Positions 36,638 to 40,848 of a stretch of 64,000 nucleotides of DNA are shown in pieces (the first letter of the stretch is position 1; every line of letters begins with the position of its first letter). The stretch comes from an uncultured bacterium. GTDB lineage: Bacteria; Acidobacteriota; Thermoanaerobaculia; Multivoradales; JAHEKO01. The translations under genes were made by a program, and so were the position numbers. The DNA lies in NCBI GenBank assembly GCA_905479655.1, contig CAJQNK010000076.1, positions 331 through 64,330 of the forward strand, read 5' to 3'. Below the pieces are notes generated by a model. It was given only the letters and a program-made list of their open reading frames with translations, ran no database searches and had not been told where the DNA came from.

Positions 36638-37393
36638 TCAAGCCAACAGCAGGTACACCACGGCGCCGAGGGTTGCCGCCTGGAGCGCAAGGAGCCACCA
36701 GACCGCCCGGCCCAGGGTGCGGCTCCTCCGAGTCAGCTCCTCCCGACTCGACTCCAGGGTTCTCGAAAGGCCGAGTCGGAGGTCGACCAGGCCGCGGAGC
36801 AGCACGCCGCTACGTTCCTCCACCTTGGCCTGGAGCTCGATCCGCCCGCCCTCGACCTCGTCGCGAACCCGAGTCAGGGCCGCGGCCGTGGCCTCCTCGT
36901 GGGCCCGCCGCGCCAGGGCGAAGCCGCGGGCCACCTGGGACGACGTCTCGGAGGTCGCCGCCTGATGCTCCTGCCGAAACGCCGAGATCCCCTCGGCGAC
37001 GTCGACCTCGATCCCGGTCAGTCGCCCTTCCAGGCTCTGGCGGGCCTCTCCCACGGCGTGCAGGGCCTCGACCCGCAGGTCCGAGATCTGGCCACCGGTC
37101 GCCTCGAGACCCGCCTGCAGTCTGGTCGGATCGATCGCCTCGAGAATCGAGAGCACGGACGTCATGCGCGTCGTCGTCTCCTCCAGCGCCTCGACATAGT
37201 CGCGTAGCGAGCCGGCGGCTTCCCGCAGCCCGTGGCTTCCCTCCACCACACCGTCGCGCGCGACGTCGATTCGGGCGGTCGCGTCCCGCAGCTCACGGGA
37301 GGCCGCTCCGAGCTTGCGCAGTTGCCGCTCCGCCTCCACGAACCGCCGCTTCACCTGCGCGAGGGCCAGCGTGCCGTCAGATTCCGTCGTCAT
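36638..37393 (-). CDS. coiled-coil protein with a single C-terminal TM helix (tail-anchored)
   Basis: ATG at 37393 forms an ATGA overlap with the upstream stop. 251 aa, Ala/Glu/Arg/Leu-rich, ending RAVWWLLALQAATLGAVVYLLLA. Confidence 0.6.
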   Translation of the reverse strand: MTTESDGTLALAQVKRRFVEAERQLRKLGAASRELRDATARIDVARDGVVEGSHGLREAAGSLRDYVEALEETTTRMTSVLSILEAIDPTRLQAGLEATGGQISDLRVEALHAVGEARQSLEGRLTGIEVDVAEGISAFRQEHQAATSETSSQVARGFALARRAHEEATAAALTRVRDEVEGGRIELQAKVEERSGVLLRGLVDLRLGLSRTLESSREELTRRSRTLGRAVWWLLALQAATLGAVVYLLLA

Positions 37394-40300
37394 GGAGCCG
37401 TCCTTTCCGGACTCGTCCCCAGACCCAGGTCCAGGAGCTTGGAGCCGATCCTGCGGAGTCGGCGGTCCAGGACGACGACCGCCTCCCCCGCCGACACGCC
37501 CGGGTCGATGAGCAACACCTCGAGCTCCTCGTCTTCCAGGCCTGTCGGTTCGACCTCCTGATCCTCCCATATCTCCCACAGGCTCGTCGGCCCGGACCCG
37601 GGAGCGGACCGGGCCTCGCCCAGGAGCCAACCGAACGCCTTCTCTCGCTCGACGGCTTCGATCACGATCTCCGGGAACGAGCCGCGAACCAGGAGCTCGA
37701 CCGCGTCCCGCCAGGCCCGGTCGCGCCGATCCTCCGCCAGCCCCAGGTAGCCCACTCCGAGGGCGACTCCCGGGTGCGCGGTCGGTCCGCGATCCTCGAG
37801 GGCCTGCCGCAGCGCGCGGAGCTCCCCGGGAACCGTCTCCTCGTAGAGGTCGATCCAGGGAGCGGCCCGGAAGCGGCTCTCGGCCGAGAGTGACCGGAGC
37901 CGCGTGGCCGCGGTCGTCCGAGGCCGAGGCCGTAGATCCGTCGCATGACCAGCGCGGGCCGAGGTCACGGGGATCCAGGCCTCGGCGATGGCCCTCCTTC
38001 GATGCGGCTCGACCTCGTCGTAGAGCAGCTTCAGGGATCGAGTGAGAACGTCCAGCTGGTCGTCTTCTCCTGCGGGGCGTCCAGCCCACCAGCGCCGCGC
38101 CTCCCACCAGGCACTGGGGCGGTGGCGCCACACCACCGAGCGCAGGGCCGGGAAGGCGGCGGGAGGAGAACCGGGGCCTTCGACCCAGCGACCGTCTGCG
38201 TCGCGTCCGACGCGGACGATCCATCCCAGCATCGCGAGTCGATCGACCGCTCGATCGAAGCCCTCCGGGTCGTCGTCCTCGGACCGGCGAACCCGACCCC
38301 ACGGCGGCGCCGCGTGCCTGAGCGCCGCCAGCAGGCGAGCCGCCGGAGCCAGCTCCCGATCGAGACCCGGGAACTCCTCCAGGTGCCGCCGAATCGCCCA
38401 CTCCACGTCACCGGAAACAGGCTGGTCCACCGGCCGACGACCCGCCGCCCGCGGCAGTTCGCCCCGTTCCCGGCTCTCCGCCAGGCGGAGCCAGCTCCGG
38501 GTGGAGGCGTCGTCCAGGACGAGGACAGCCGAGGGCTCGCCGTTGGACCGGAGACACCCCGCGACGACACCGCTCCCGGGCCAACCGACGACCAGGCGCC
38601 AGGCGGCGCCAGACGGCGGATGCCGCAGGAACGCCAGGGGTCCGACCAGGAGGTCGACCTCGTTCCGCCGCCAGGCAGCGAGCGCCGGACGCGGATCGTC
38701 CATCTCGTCGACCGAGGCCACCTCGTCGAATCGGCCCTCCCGGCGGATCCTCTCGGCGACCGCGGCCGGAGCGAGCCCCGACGTTCGACTGCAGACGACG
38801 AGGCCGGGTCGGATCGCAGGGCCTCTCCGCTCGACCCGGTCGGCGAGCTCGCCGACGATCGGCACGAGGGCGTCGAGGGCCCGCTGCGGACGGGACCGGT
38901 GAACACGAAGCCCCATCGACGGCGACGGCCCCTCTTCGGGGTCGGTCGATTCGACCTGGACCGGGTCGTCCAGCATCCATCGCGCGTCGCGCCGGACGAG
39001 GGGGTCGTCGGAGCGGCCGCAGGCCAGGATCGTCGGGCGAGGCTCGCCCGGAGGACCCCGCAGGCCCTCGGTGTGGGCGCCGAGCGGGTGCCCGAACTCA
39101 GGGCACCAGGGGCAGATCGCCTCCACCTCGTCGATCACCAGCAGCGAGACCGCGCCCTCCGAGTGGGCGGACCCCGGCGTGACTCGGCCGCTTCGCAGAA
39201 CCTCGAGGGACCGCCAGAGGCTCATCGACCGAGGCGCCTCGCGGAGGGCGGCGGTCCCCTCGGCCGGGTGCTCGGCAGGGCGCTCGACGGGCGGATCCAA
39301 GCCGAGACCGGTGCTACGCCACTCCTGGGCCCGCCATGAGGGCGAATCCTCGCCGAGGTGGACGGTCGTCCCCGGCAGCAGCAGGGTCGCCAGTTGGGCT
39401 ACCCGCAACGGTGGGACCGCTCCCCGCCCCCACACACAGACGTCGCGTCCGCCCAGCAGGTCGAGCACCGCGCCGATCTCGGCGTCCGGGATTCGATCCA
39501 CTCCGGCCAGCAGAGTCACCAGGTCGCGGAGTCCCGCGCGGCTCGTCTGTGGGAGAGTCGGCGGTGGCCCTTCTCCATCGGTCGTCTCGTCGACCTCGGG
39601 CTCCCTCGGCGGCGTCGAGCCCCGCACGACGATCGTGGCCTGCCCGTCGTCGGGGGGGAGGGCGTCGATCGGCCCCTTCTCCAGCTCGACCCCGATCCGC
39701 AGGTCCGGGGGGGATGGGGTACTCCTGGCGCCTCGGCTCTCGTACCGTCCGTCGACCTCGGAGAGACGCTCCACGCGGGGTCGCCGCAGCTCGAAGGCCT
39801 CTCCGGAGCCCGAGACCGCGGCGACCTCCCGTGGGCACACGGCGCCTCCGAGAATCCGATCCACGGATTGGAATAGGTCGAGGAGGCAGGTCAGGAGCTC
39901 GGGACCTCGATCCAGCTCGTGCCGCATCTCCAGCCGCCAAGAGTCGCCCCGCAACCAGCCACGCTCCACTCCCTCCACCAGCGCCAGGCCGACGGTCGCC
40001 CAGAAGACCGGCAGGAAGACGGCGCTGAGGACGGAGGGGTCGGACGGACCCTCCGGCGCACGGAGCCGACCCGCCAGGGGCTCAAACCGCTGCGGGGGAA
40101 ACGTCAGCAGATCCTGCCCGTCGAACCGCTCGACCTCGAAGCCCACGCCCTTCAGGGCGGCGGCTCGTCCGACGGTGAGCGGATTCGCCGGCAGCTGCGT
40201 CGGGCTGTCGATGAGGAAGGCGACCGGGGGCGACCAGGGTGGAGTGAACAGCAGGTCGACGACCCGGGCTCCGCCGCCCGGGTCGGAAGGCCCCTCGCAG

Positions 40301-40848
40301 ACCAGGGCATCCAGGCTCACCGCGGGCGTCAACCAGCGGGCGACCGCTCCCCCGCAGCGGCCCTCGACCCAGTCGAACAGGGCCCGCCGTTCCCTCGTCT
40401 CGAGGACGAGACCCGGGTCCCGCTCGAACCGTGGAGCGCTCCAACTTGCGGCAGCACCCGCCGCTTCATCCGCCACCAGGCGGCGGACGTCCGACGCCGC
40501 CCGGGCCTCGAGACCTTCCCGGAGCGCCGTGGGGACCGGCGCCATCTCGCCCCGCTGGAGGATCCGCCGCATCGCCGCGGACCAGCGGAGCCTGGCGGCC
40601 GGATCGGTGGCCCCCGACGAGATCTCCGGCCCCCTGCAGAAGAGCACCGCCCGGCTCAGACGGCGACGTAGTGCCGCGGTCGCCCCCGAGCTCTCCAGAC
40701 TCGGCGGGTCGAGTCCCCGCCACCAAGCCCCGGGGCGGACTTCGCGCAGCTGCCAGCCCGGCGTCGCGGTCCGACGAGAGACCGAAGTCGCCGACTCCGC
40801 CTCCCAGCCGCGCTGCGCAGCATGCTGCCGCCCTCGCGTGATCGCCAT
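37390..40848 (-). CDS. large RecQ-like SF2 helicase-fold protein with degenerate catalytic motifs; start uncertain
   Basis: Collinear with the E. coli RecQ core as I remember it. [34 protein letters not shown] matches ..[46 protein letters not shown] matches [32 protein letters not shown] matches [14 protein letters not shown] matches [16 protein letters not shown] matches QETGRAGRDG. Confidence 0.65.
   Translation of the reverse strand: [1152 protein letters not shown]

What the first reader, a model, noticed from the sequence alone, without database searches (positions are those of the whole stretch)
37390..40848. RecQ-fold protein in which every catalytic helicase motif is substituted
The central ~400 residues are collinear with the RecQ core, but the catalytic residues are gone. 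The Walker A position reads GRGAVPP (39409-39429) instead of PTGGGKS, so the lysine is lost. Motif II reads DEVE (39121-39132) instead of DEAH, although the following xCxxWxxxFxxP spacing ([13 protein letters not shown] against [12 protein letters not shown]) is kept. Motif III LTATA becomes LACGR. Motif VI QExGRAGRDG becomes GCLRSNGEP, which loses the arginine finger. Upstream, aa ~150-262 (40063-40401) resemble a DUF559/Vsr-like endonuclease fold ([39 protein letters not shown]), also without an obvious acidic catalytic set. A nucleic-acid enzyme scaffold appears to have been repurposed as a non-catalytic protein inside a secretion locus, which is unusual.
Basis: partly seen in the sequence, partly recalled or inferred. 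Interest (0 to 1): 0.7.

Follow-up and report, generated by a model that had tools for sequence, protein, structure and literature searches.

The report
Catalytically dead RecQ-type nuclease-helicase relic
This 1152-residue gene descends from a nuclease-plus-RecQ-helicase family, has lost essentially all its catalytic residues yet stayed intact with its small membrane-anchored partner gene, so it is probably a non-enzymatic "pseudoenzyme" that merely sits in a type VI secretion locus.

Summary
ORF 37390-40848 (-) is a real gene, and the quoted motif strings sit at the quoted coordinates.

Standard libraries (Pfam, NCBIfam, PADLOC, PDB sequences) do not recognise it. It is nevertheless a full-length, collinear, very divergent member (E = 4e-33) of an uncatalogued family of about 1280 aa: zinc ribbon, DUF559/Vsr-like nuclease, RecQ-type helicase core, C-terminal helical domain.

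All ~150 full-length members checked keep Walker A, DEAH, motif III, motif VI and the nuclease ExDG. The target keeps none, and no GK[ST] or DExH occurs anywhere in it. It also lacks the zinc ribbon. Its strict core still matches the family core (hhalign E = 2.8e-5; 0 of 150 shuffles reach it), and the models match RecQ structures and the DUF559 structure 3hrl.

In 9 of 9 intact loci a small coiled-coil, often tail-anchored gene follows. The target's ATGA-overlapping 251-aa neighbour is a diverged homologue (E = 2e-6).

Neutral-decay simulation predicts 13-16 in-frame stops for this much residue loss; the frame has none, so selection kept it open.

The link to the T6SS looks positional. No close orthologue exists.

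The parts
37390..40848 (-). Whole gene, 1152 aa: a degenerate member of the zinc-ribbon/DUF559/RecQ-core/C-terminal-domain family
   Evidence: ORF; coding signature; identical independent gene call; family HMM E = 4.3e-33; phmmer best non-self hit 1.1e-29, collinear over aa 133-1017.
40853..40861 (-). Purine-rich Shine-Dalgarno-like stretch (AGGA..GAGG) 4-14 nt upstream of the ATG. An in-frame stop five codons upstream rules out an N-terminal extension, and so rules out a hidden zinc ribbon.
   Evidence: Read directly from the sequence.
40402..40767 (-). N-terminal family-specific domain (aa ~28-149). The zinc ribbon that precedes it in the family is absent: the first Cys is at aa 71.
   Evidence: BLASTP HSP aa 60-496 against P0002; conserved ILQRG and PxPT columns; model elements.
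40063..40401 (-). DUF559/Vsr-like PD-(D/E)XK fold (aa 150-262) with a degenerate active site. D198, D214 and R228 are kept. E212->L, H218->Q, D225->T and D229->A are changed.
   Evidence: Motif columns; N-terminal model top hit 3hrl, probability 0.98, TM 0.61; intact family segment hits 3hrl by sequence, 6.7e-4; P0002 matches Pfam DUF559 at 2e-9.
39532..40062 (-). Family-specific alpha/beta linker domain (aa 263-439). It has no confident structural match.
   Evidence: Part of the 81-bit HMM domain covering aa 150-500; pLDDT 80-93 in the model; no PDB match apart from the nuclease segment.
38932..39531 (-). RecA1-like lobe (aa 440-639) with dead motifs: motif 0 Q->E (aa 453-461); motif I PTGAGKS->GRGAVPP (39409-39429); motif Ia partly deleted; motif II DEAH->DEVE (39121-39132) with W581 and F585 kept; motif III LTGTAS->LACGRS (39013-39027).
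   Evidence: hhalign on the core; Foldseek RecQ hits.
38452..38931 (-). RecA2-like lobe (aa 640-799) with dead motifs: IV GIVF->GLVV; V TKAFGMGIDKPN->[11 protein letters not shown] (38608-38649); VI QEAGRAGRD->VVAGCLRSN (38533-38559). This is the most eroded part: only 22% of the >=90%-conserved family columns are kept.
37393..38451 (-). Post-core helical/winged-helix-like region and C-terminal helical domain (aa 800-1152). It remains significantly similar to the family.
   Evidence: HMM domain aa 812-1080, iE = 1.6e-5; BLASTP HSP aa 932-1076; hhalign extends to aa 884.
36638..37393 (-). Partner gene, 251 aa: N-terminal helical domain, coiled-coil middle, C-terminal tail-anchor TM helix. Its ATG overlaps the target's TGA (ATGA at 37390-37393).
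   Evidence: Junction. hhalign against 9 partners of intact family members: probability 89.5%, E = 2e-6, in register (aa 11-103 to profile 4-96). Score 45.3 against shuffles with mean 13.1 and maximum 21.8, reversed sequence 25.9; divergent true partners score 26-38 in leave-one-out.

Best explanation
The gene encodes a catalytically dead descendant of a two-gene module. One gene is a large fusion protein (zinc ribbon, DUF559/Vsr-like nuclease, RecQ-type SF2 helicase, C-terminal helical domain). The other is a small coiled-coil, usually tail-anchored membrane protein.

Shown here:
- full-length collinear homology to that family;
- retention of the overall domain folds in models;
- loss of the zinc ribbon;
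- loss of four near-invariant nuclease residues;
- loss of the Walker A lysine, the motif II histidine, motifs III and V, and most of motif VI;
- retention of a diverged partner gene that overlaps the target's stop codon;
- an open reading frame that neutral decay cannot explain.

Inferred: the protein can no longer hydrolyse ATP, unwind or cut nucleic acid. It has been kept by selection for a non-enzymatic job carried by the better-preserved non-catalytic parts (N-domain, linker domain, post-core and C-terminal domains). The most likely job is binding its membrane-anchored partner, and possibly nucleic acid, as a scaffold, sensor or regulator. In effect it is a 'disarmed' version of what, in its intact relatives, looks like a defence-island nuclease-helicase.

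Its position between two clpV genes in the variable, effector-carrying part of a T6SS locus is most simply explained as insertion of a mobile accessory module, not membership of the secretion machine.
For: Homology:
- Only one non-self hit in the word-indexed search. It carries DUF559 + DEAD + Helicase_C and is a bona fide RecQ-family helicase (TIGR00614 247 bits against a cutoff of 219.8; E. coli RecQ 1oyw 1.5e-52).
- Exhaustive phmmer: 100 family hits, with single alignments spanning aa 133-1017.
- Family HMM E = 4.3e-33.
- Core alone: hhalign E = 2.8e-5, z about 10 against shuffles.

Fold: full-length model pLDDT 71, pTM 0.71; the top 50 PDB matches are almost all RecQ-family helicases. The N-terminal model matches the DUF559-type structure 3hrl.

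Motif loss: column-by-column. Every full-length relative among about 200 proteins keeps TGxGK[ST], DEAH, LTGTA, QExGRAGR and ExDG; the target has none.

Differential erosion: 31% of the >=90%-conserved columns are kept in the helicase core against 49% elsewhere, Fisher p = 0.0024. In the family itself the core is the most conserved part.

Maintenance:
- P(open 1152 codons) = 4e-7 at this codon-position composition; the other five frames carry 5-13 stops.
- Neutral simulation: first stop at 0.023 substitutions per site; 13-16 stops expected at the observed residue loss; 0 of 40 runs stay open, with indels ignored.
- GC2 (0.57) remains far below GC3 (0.84).
- SD-like sequence present and an ATGA overlap with the partner gene.

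Module: 9 of 9 intact loci have a tightly coupled 133-209 aa downstream gene. The target's partner matches their profile.

Context: intact relatives sit next to PARIS-like AAA_15/DUF4276, RM enzymes, MmeI, HsdM, NACHT, HEPN_AbiU2 and DUF4011/MTES_1575 genes. The closest relatives of the adjacent ClpV2 lie in canonical T6SS loci with no such gene.
Against: - No biochemical data exist. 'Dead' rests on motif loss alone.
- No orthologue closer than about 27-33% identity exists in about 15 billion proteins. Conservation of the motif loss and dN/dS therefore cannot be measured, and the case is a singleton.
- Amino-acid composition has drifted to the GC-rich extreme (GARP 0.43, FYMINK 0.06), outside the range of 102 intact members. 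That signals relaxed constraint over much of the protein.
- The structural models were built on an alignment of intact family members, so they are not independent of the homology evidence.
- A core-only HMMER profile does not detect the core (E = 3.7).
- The function of the intact family is itself unknown. The 'defence' label is a guilt-by-association inference from nine loci.
- The gene may be co-transcribed with clpV2 (12-nt gap), so a secretion-related role is not excluded.
Confidence: 0.62

Rival explanations
1. Functionless relic. The module was inactivated and is simply decaying. The open frame is a leftover helped by the low stop-codon frequency of a 72% GC genome.
For: - Extreme GC-driven amino-acid composition, outside the family range.
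- Longest branch in the family tree (0.53 against at most 0.35).
- Even outside the core only about 50% of near-invariant residues survive.
- No orthologues.
- The adjacent clpV2 carries a nonsense polymorphism in this very contig, showing the neighbourhood tolerates gene loss.
Against: - An open frame of 1152 codons has probability 4e-7 at this composition, while the other five frames of the same DNA have 5-13 stops.
- Neutral simulation gives the first stop at about 2% divergence and 13-16 stops by the observed level of residue loss, 0 of 40 runs open, before counting indels.
- GC2 is not at the GC3 level.
- Erosion is significantly non-uniform among domains.
- The partner gene and the ATGA coupling are preserved.
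Confidence: 0.2
2. Secretion-linked role. The dead nuclease-helicase and its tail-anchored partner have been co-opted by the T6SS, for example as an adaptor or regulator working with the orphan ClpV2, or as cargo or an immunity-like factor of the neighbouring effector module.
For: - The gene lies between two genes that both pass the curated TssH cutoff. It is downstream of VgrG, DUF4280/PAAR-like, DUF4123 and an 1882-aa putative effector, all on the same strand.
- Only 12 nt separate the partner gene from clpV2.
- No promoter-like or terminator-like signals were found in the stretch.
Against: - No match to any T6SS family in Pfam or NCBIfam.
- The closest ClpV2 relatives sit in canonical T6SS loci without any such gene.
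- The module's relatives occur in nine non-T6SS contexts.
- T6SS variable regions commonly accumulate unrelated accessory genes (general knowledge).
- At 1152 aa the protein is far larger than typical immunity proteins (general knowledge).
Confidence: 0.12
3. Still an enzyme. ATP binding and hydrolysis, or nuclease activity, persists through non-canonical residues, for instance the retained D573/E574 with an arginine substituting in the P-loop.
For: - D573 and E574 of motif II, W581 and F585 of the aromatic loop, and one arginine in the motif VI region (R767) are retained.
- D198, D214 and R228 of the nuclease domain are retained.
Against: - The Walker A Lys-Ser/Thr pair is replaced by Pro-Pro.
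- Motifs 0, Ia, III, V and most of VI are gone together.
- No alternative GK[ST] or DExH exists anywhere.
- Four near-invariant nuclease residues are lost.
- From established knowledge of SF2 helicases, the P-loop lysine is required for NTP hydrolysis.
Confidence: 0.04

Closest known systems
Uncatalogued family 'zinc ribbon (PF01396) + DUF559 (PF04480) + RecQ-type DEAD/Helicase_C core + C-terminal helical domain' with a small coiled-coil or tail-anchored partner (e.g. P0002, P0036, P0113 from Actinobacteria bacterium IMCC26256, L006 Bryobacterales)
   Same: Full-length collinear homology. Same domain order from the N-domain to the C-terminal domain. Same tightly coupled downstream partner type.
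   Different: The target lacks the zinc ribbon, the nuclease catalytic residues and all helicase ATPase motifs. It is 19-25% identical to every member, while intact members share 27-69%. It sits in a T6SS locus rather than a defence-island-like context.
RecQ family DNA helicases (E. coli RecQ 1oyw/1oyy, C. sakazakii RecQ 4tmu/6crm, BLM, RECQ1, RECQL5, WRN)
   Same: Predicted two-lobe RecA-like core. The best structural matches are RecQ-family entries. A remnant of the RecQ-specific DEAH-CxxxWGHDFRP signature survives as [16 protein letters not shown].
   Different: No significant match to RecQ/SF2 HMMs or PDB sequences. All ATPase motifs are degenerate. The alignment of the intact family to E. 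coli RecQ covers only its two RecA lobes (residues 11-343), so canonical RQC and HRDC modules are not evident.
RqlH/RqlI (PsyrT/PsyrA): a RecQ-like helicase with a toxic PRTase domain, restrained by a co-operonic partner (PMC4670107)
   Same: A two-gene operon built around a RecQ-like helicase fused to a second enzymatic domain, with a small partner that interacts with it. PADLOC PsyrT models hit the helicase core of the intact family (4e-60).
   Different: The accessory domain here is a DUF559 nuclease, not a PRTase. The partner is an unrelated coiled-coil/TM protein. The target itself matches no PsyrT model and is catalytically degenerate.
DpdF (RecQ-like helicase of the Dpd 7-deazaguanine DNA-modification system)
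   Same: PADLOC and NCBIfam DpdF models hit the helicase core of the intact family (3e-86; 1e-47 but below cutoff).
   Different: Only the generic RecQ core matches. No dpd genes are nearby. The target gives no DpdF hit.
Vsr/DUF559 endonuclease-like proteins (structure 3hrl, Neisseria NGO0050)
   Same: Fold of aa ~150-262 (probability 0.98, TM 0.61) and the alpha-beta-beta-beta-alpha-beta element order.
   Different: No Pfam DUF559 hit for the target. E212, H218, D225 and D229 of the family signature are replaced.

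Membership tests
RecQ family / SF2 helicase | Significant match to curated RecQ/SF2 profiles (Pfam DEAD, Helicase_C; NCBIfam TIGR00614) | tested here: not met
   Zero families at E <= 10 in Pfam and NCBIfam, and zero PDB sequences. The intact relative P0002 passes TIGR00614.
RecQ family / SF2 helicase | Descent from, and fold of, the two RecA-like lobes | tested here: met
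   Strict core against the family core profile: E = 2.8e-5, 0 of 150 shuffles reach the score. The model matches RecQ structures at E about 1e-9. Caveat: the model was guided by an alignment of intact family members.
RecQ family / SF2 helicase | Walker A (motif I) GxGK[ST] | tested here: not met
   GRGAVPP lies under PTGAGKS. There is no GK[ST] anywhere in the protein.
RecQ family / SF2 helicase | Motif II DExH | tested here: not met
   DEVE. The Asp-Glu pair is kept and the His is lost.
RecQ family / SF2 helicase | Motifs III, V and VI (QxxGRxGR arginine finger) | tested here: not met
   [26 protein letters not shown]. At most one Arg aligns.
RecQ family / SF2 helicase | ATP-dependent DNA unwinding | not testable with these tools
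   Needs purified protein.
DUF559 / Vsr-like PD-(D/E)XK endonuclease | Fold | tested here: met
   3hrl is the top hit, probability 0.98, TM 0.61. The intact family segment hits 3hrl by sequence.
DUF559 / Vsr-like PD-(D/E)XK endonuclease | Profile match and conserved D...ExDG..H...D..RD signature | tested here: not met
   No Pfam hit. E212L, H218Q, D225T and D229A are changed; D198, D214 and R228 are kept.
Zinc-ribbon/DUF559/RecQ-core family with small partner (uncatalogued) | Full-length collinear homology, including the family-specific N-, linker and C-terminal domains | tested here: met
   HMM E = 4.3e-33 with domains at aa 150-500 and 812-1080. phmmer single alignments span aa 133-1017.
Zinc-ribbon/DUF559/RecQ-core family with small partner (uncatalogued) | N-terminal topoisomerase-type zinc ribbon | tested here: not met
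   No Cys before aa 71. An in-frame stop five codons upstream of the ATG rules out an extension.
Zinc-ribbon/DUF559/RecQ-core family with small partner (uncatalogued) | Tightly coupled downstream coiled-coil (often tail-anchored) partner gene | tested here: met
   Present in 9 of 9 intact loci. The target's 251-aa neighbour overlaps by ATGA and matches their profile (E = 2e-6; controls).
Zinc-ribbon/DUF559/RecQ-core family with small partner (uncatalogued) | Intact catalytic motifs (a property of all sampled members) | tested here: not met
   Regex and column checks.
PsyrTA / RqlHI | RecQ-like helicase carrying a PRTase domain, plus an RqlI/PsyrA partner | tested here: not met
   The target and its partner give no PADLOC PsyrT or PsyrA hit. 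No PRTase domain appears in Pfam. System definition taken from PMC4670107.
Type VI secretion system component | Match to a Tss/Tag family, or conserved presence in related T6SS loci | tested here: not met
   No Pfam or NCBIfam hit. Absent from the two closest related T6SS loci, L089 and L090.

The most novel reading that the evidence does not exclude
A former immune-type nuclease-helicase and its membrane-anchored partner, stripped of all enzymatic residues, have been co-opted as a non-catalytic accessory of a type VI secretion system. They might act as an adaptor or regulator that works with the adjacent orphan ClpV2 at the membrane. This would be a case of a defence-module pseudoenzyme exapted into a secretion machine.
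Probability: 0.08. Interest if true: 0.75.

Novelty: new variant of a known kind. Interest (0 to 1): 0.45.

Why it matters
Bacterial pseudoenzymes derived from helicases are rarely documented. Here, loss of catalysis is total in two fused enzymatic domains, yet the reading frame and the partner gene have been preserved. That separates the scaffold function of a helicase-nuclease from its enzymology in a natural example.

The analysis also brings to light the intact parent family. It is a widespread two-gene module of about 1280 aa plus about 130-210 aa, with more than 110 protein clusters at 90% identity. Members come from records labelled Bryobacterales (Acidobacteriota), Actinobacteria and Proteobacteria. 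It sits in defence-island-like neighbourhoods and is not catalogued as a system in PADLOC, which makes it a testable candidate anti-phage system.

The limitation is that the dead version is a singleton from a poorly sampled lineage, so its generality and function remain open.

Tried and rejected
- Pfam, NCBIfam, PADLOC and PDB-sequence searches with the target itself: nothing, even at E <= 10.
- Core-only HMMER profile of the family against the target: not significant (E = 3.7). Only profile-profile comparison detects the core.
- Genome-contig scan with the family alignment: the tool chose generic RecQ motifs as patterns, so 78 of 80 loci were ordinary RecQ genes. Only L006 and L007 were useful.
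- Search for a second, intact family copy in the window: none.
- Promoter/terminator scan of 33.5-44.5 kb: no sites. The scan models sigma-70 consensus only, so this is uninformative for this organism.
- Possible link between the upstream 315-aa beta-propeller and a beta-propeller near the intact helicase in L087: unrelated (E = 11).
- The two ClpV genes as a recent duplication flanking an insertion: rejected. They are only 53% identical.
- Partner family against PADLOC and Pfam: only weak generic coiled-coil matches such as the ZorA tail, JetC and ApoLp-III.
- Literature searches for DUF559 + RecQ, pseudo-helicases, T6SS + RecQ, and DUF559 + helicase + defence: nothing describes this architecture.
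- Tree placement (deep outgroup or accelerated lineage) could not be resolved. Midpoint rooting on a long branch is unreliable.

Full report
**1. The observation**

The window has about 70% GC, where long spurious ORFs are common, so I first checked that the ORF is real. ORF 37390-40848 (-) starts with ATG and runs 1152 codons. Its codon-position GC is 0.78/0.57/0.84 and holds in every 100-codon window. An independent gene caller on a 181-kb metagenome scaffold made the same call. At this codon-position composition an open frame of 1152 codons has a probability of about 4e-7, and the other five frames of the same DNA carry 5-13 stops. A purine-rich SD-like stretch precedes the ATG, and the TGA overlaps the ATG of the next gene (ATGA).

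**2. No direct match, but a bridging family**

The protein has no hit at E <= 10 in Pfam, NCBIfam or PDB sequences, and none in PADLOC. The word-indexed search of 5.8 billion proteins returned only itself and one distant protein, P0002 (E = 3e-14). P0002 carries DUF559 + DEAD + Helicase_C. It is a genuine RecQ-family helicase, shown by:
- PTGAGKS, DEAH-CVSEWGHDFRP, LTGTAS and QEAGRAGRD in its sequence;
- E. coli RecQ 1oyw at 1.5e-52;
- TIGR00614 above its curated cutoff.

P0002 represents a family of more than 110 clusters of about 1250-1300 aa. The architecture is: topoisomerase-type zinc ribbon, N-domain, DUF559, linker domain, RecQ-type core, C-terminal helical domain.

An exhaustive HMMER search of 1.84 billion representatives with the target found 100 family members. 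The best was 1.1e-29 at 27% identity, with single alignments spanning aa 133-1017. Nothing was closer than about 33% identity.

An HMM built only from intact members scores the target at E = 4.3e-33. The signal lies in two stretches:
- aa 150-500 (81 bits): nuclease, linker and the start of RecA1;
- aa 812-1080 (17 bits).

**3. Is the middle really a RecQ core?**

A core-only HMMER profile does not reach significance (E = 3.7), although its weak local alignments fall at the collinear Walker A and motif II positions. Profile-profile comparison does detect the core:
- aa 497-931 against the full family: probability 93.8%, E = 1.7e-7.
- The strict core, aa 500-800, against a core-only profile: score 42.8, E = 2.8e-5, over 190 collinear columns from motif II to just before motif VI.
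- Controls: 150 shuffles gave mean 15.5 and maximum 25.9; the reversed sequence and neighbouring proteins gave 13-18.

An AlphaFold2 model built on a 78-sequence alignment (pLDDT 71, pTM 0.71) shows alternating beta/alpha elements across aa 440-800. Its top 50 PDB matches are almost all RecQ-family helicases, at E about 1e-9. Because the alignment consisted of intact relatives, the model is corroboration rather than an independent test.

**4. Motif state**

In alignments with 22 and 77 intact members:

| Motif | Family | Target |
|---|---|---|
| 0 | Q | E |
| I | PTGAGKS | GRGAVPP |
| Ia | present | partly deleted |
| II | DEAH | DEVE (D573, E574, W581, F585 kept) |
| III | LTGTAS | LACGRS |
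| IV | GIVF | GLVV |
| V | TKAFGMGIDKPN | [11 protein letters not shown] |
| VI | QEAGRAGRD | VVAGCLRSN |

A regular-expression check of P0122-P0217 from the exhaustive search showed every full-length protein there intact for Walker A, DEAH, motif III, motif VI and the nuclease ExDG. The target has none of them. The 77 members are near-invariant at the same columns. The target contains no GK[ST] or DExH anywhere and only 5 lysines. The alternative refutation, intact motifs elsewhere in the protein, therefore fails.

**5. The nuclease domain**

Residues 150-262 align to the family's DUF559 segment. D198, D214 and R228 are kept, while E212, H218, D225 and D229 are replaced. A separate model of aa 1-440 (pLDDT 73) has 3hrl, a Neisseria endonuclease-like protein, as its one confident PDB match (probability 0.98, TM 0.61). 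Weaker VRR_NUC and FAN1 matches follow. The intact family's nuclease segment hits the same entry by sequence (6.7e-4). The family's N-terminal zinc ribbon is absent from the target and cannot be hidden upstream.

**6. A conserved two-gene module**

In nine of nine intact-family loci, a gene of 133-209 aa with no Pfam match follows the helicase with an overlap or at most a few nucleotides of spacing. These partners share an N-terminal helical domain of about 100 aa and a variable coiled-coil. Five of the nine have a C-terminal TM helix.

The target's ATGA-coupled 251-aa neighbour has the same layout. It matches the nine-member profile in register: aa 11-103 to profile positions 4-96, probability 89.5%, E = 2e-6. 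Its score of 45.3 compares as follows:
- shuffles: mean 13.1, maximum 21.8;
- reversed sequence: 25.9;
- helical controls: 14-24;
- the two most divergent true partners in leave-one-out: 26 and 38.

So the gene pair, not just the large gene, has been inherited.

**7. Relic or maintained pseudoenzyme?**

Signs of relaxed constraint:
- The target is the longest branch in the family tree (0.53 against at most 0.35). It is 19-25% identical to all members, whereas intact members share 27-69%.
- Its composition is pushed to GC-rich codons (GARP 0.43, FYMINK 0.06). That is outside the range of 102 intact members (GARP at most 0.38, FYMINK at least 0.11).

Signs of selection:
- Residue loss is significantly non-uniform. 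The target keeps 31% of the >=90%-conserved columns in the helicase core and 49% elsewhere (p = 0.0024), even though the core is the best-conserved part of the family.
- A neutral point-substitution simulation started from this ORF produces the first in-frame stop at about 0.023 substitutions per site, when the protein is still 95% identical. It predicts 13-16 stops by the time residue retention falls to 49% or 31%. None of 40 runs stayed open, and indels were ignored.
- GC2 has not drifted up toward GC3.

I conclude that the frame was kept open by selection while catalysis was lost. The protein is, or was until very recently, a functional non-enzyme.

**8. Context**

The window carries, all on the minus strand:
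- TssC, Hcp, TssE, TssF, TssG, ClpV1 and VgrG;
- a DUF4280/PAAR-like gene, a DUF4123 gene and an 1882-aa protein with no Pfam match;
- several unknown genes;
- the target and its partner;
- 12 nt further on, a second gene that passes the TssH cutoff (ClpV2);
- then SLT/DUF1287 and SPOR genes.

The rest of the window is unrelated: RND efflux, MFS, TPR and FG-GAP genes.

ClpV2's nearest relatives are only 55-58% identical, and those that carry a name are from Thermoanaerobaculia/Acidobacteriota MAGs. This suggests a poorly sampled Acidobacteriota-like host. Those relatives sit in canonical T6SS loci with the same gene order and no helicase-like gene. ClpV1 and ClpV2 are 53% identical, so they are not a recent duplication.

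Intact family members lie beside the following:
- a PARIS-like AAA_15/DUF4276 pair;
- restriction-modification enzymes, MmeI and HsdM;
- NACHT, HEPN_AbiU2 and GIY-YIG genes;
- a DUF4011/MTES_1575 helicase-nuclease.

The parent module therefore looks like a defence-island gene pair. That is an inference from association, not a tested function. The target's presence in the T6SS locus is best read as an accessory insertion in a variable region.

**9. Comparison with known systems**

The closest characterised analogue is RqlH/RqlI (PsyrTA), a RecQ-like helicase with a toxic accessory domain restrained by a co-operonic partner (PMC4670107). PADLOC PsyrT and DpdF models hit only the generic helicase core of the intact family and do not hit the target. 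The accessory domain (DUF559 versus PRTase) and the partner differ. No paper in the searchable library describes the zinc-ribbon/DUF559/RecQ architecture or a dead derivative of it.

**10. Verdict**

I add three points:
- The gene belongs to a specific, uncatalogued two-gene family.
- Its partner gene has been retained alongside it.
- The secretion-locus setting is probably incidental.

Function remains untested, and the case is a singleton.

Noticed in passing
window 36497-36499 (within 33986-36625, minus strand): The second ClpV/TssH gene carries a premature TAG (codon 43, in the Clp_N domain) in this contig. The otherwise identical 181-kb metagenome scaffold reads GAG (Glu) at that codon. 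It is the single SNP across about 22 kb. A truncated 793-aa product of this gene is on record from a 64.5-kb contig.
   Followed up: partly
window 33986-36625 and 55736-58408 (both minus strand): Two TssH/ClpV paralogues in one locus. Both exceed the TIGR03345 cutoff, and they are only 53% identical to each other (58% and 61% to the same Acidobacteriota-type ClpV). ClpV2 is an orphan about 19 kb downstream of the core genes.
   Followed up: partly
loci L001, L003-L007, L086-L088 (not in the window): The intact parent family (zinc ribbon + DUF559 + RecQ core, about 1280 aa) always has a tightly coupled small coiled-coil or tail-anchored partner. It sits beside PARIS-like, RM, MmeI, NACHT, HEPN and DUF4011 genes. 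PADLOC does not catalogue it as a system, so it is a candidate new defence module.
   Followed up: partly
window 45858-55731 (minus strand): A T6SS effector module: VgrG (54136-55731), DUF4280/PAAR-like (53318-53866), DUF4123 chaperone (51990-52709), and an 1882-aa protein with no Pfam or NCBIfam match (45858-51506) that is presumably the cargo effector.
   Followed up: no
window 40931-43701 (minus strand): A 608-aa Cys-rich protein and a 315-aa weak beta-propeller protein have overlapping stop and start codons and no family matches. The 315-aa gene shares the target's extreme GC-driven composition (GARP 0.42, no lysine at all).
   Followed up: partly
window ~28400-28700 (inside the 964-aa gene 28408-31302): The window and the metagenome scaffold L002 lose register from about window 28684 onward. 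This points to an indel or variant region in a large protein with no clear family (weak Ig_Rha78A_N match). The gene is called as 993 aa on the scaffold and 964 aa here.
   Followed up: no
window 32386-33978: The 530-aa ORF I first used here is the wrong frame (GC3 0.57, GC2 0.76). The scaffold's gene call corresponds to 32451-33896 (481 aa, DUF1287 + SLT lytic transglycosylase). A SPOR-domain gene follows, as it also does downstream of the related T6SS locus L089.
   Followed up: partly
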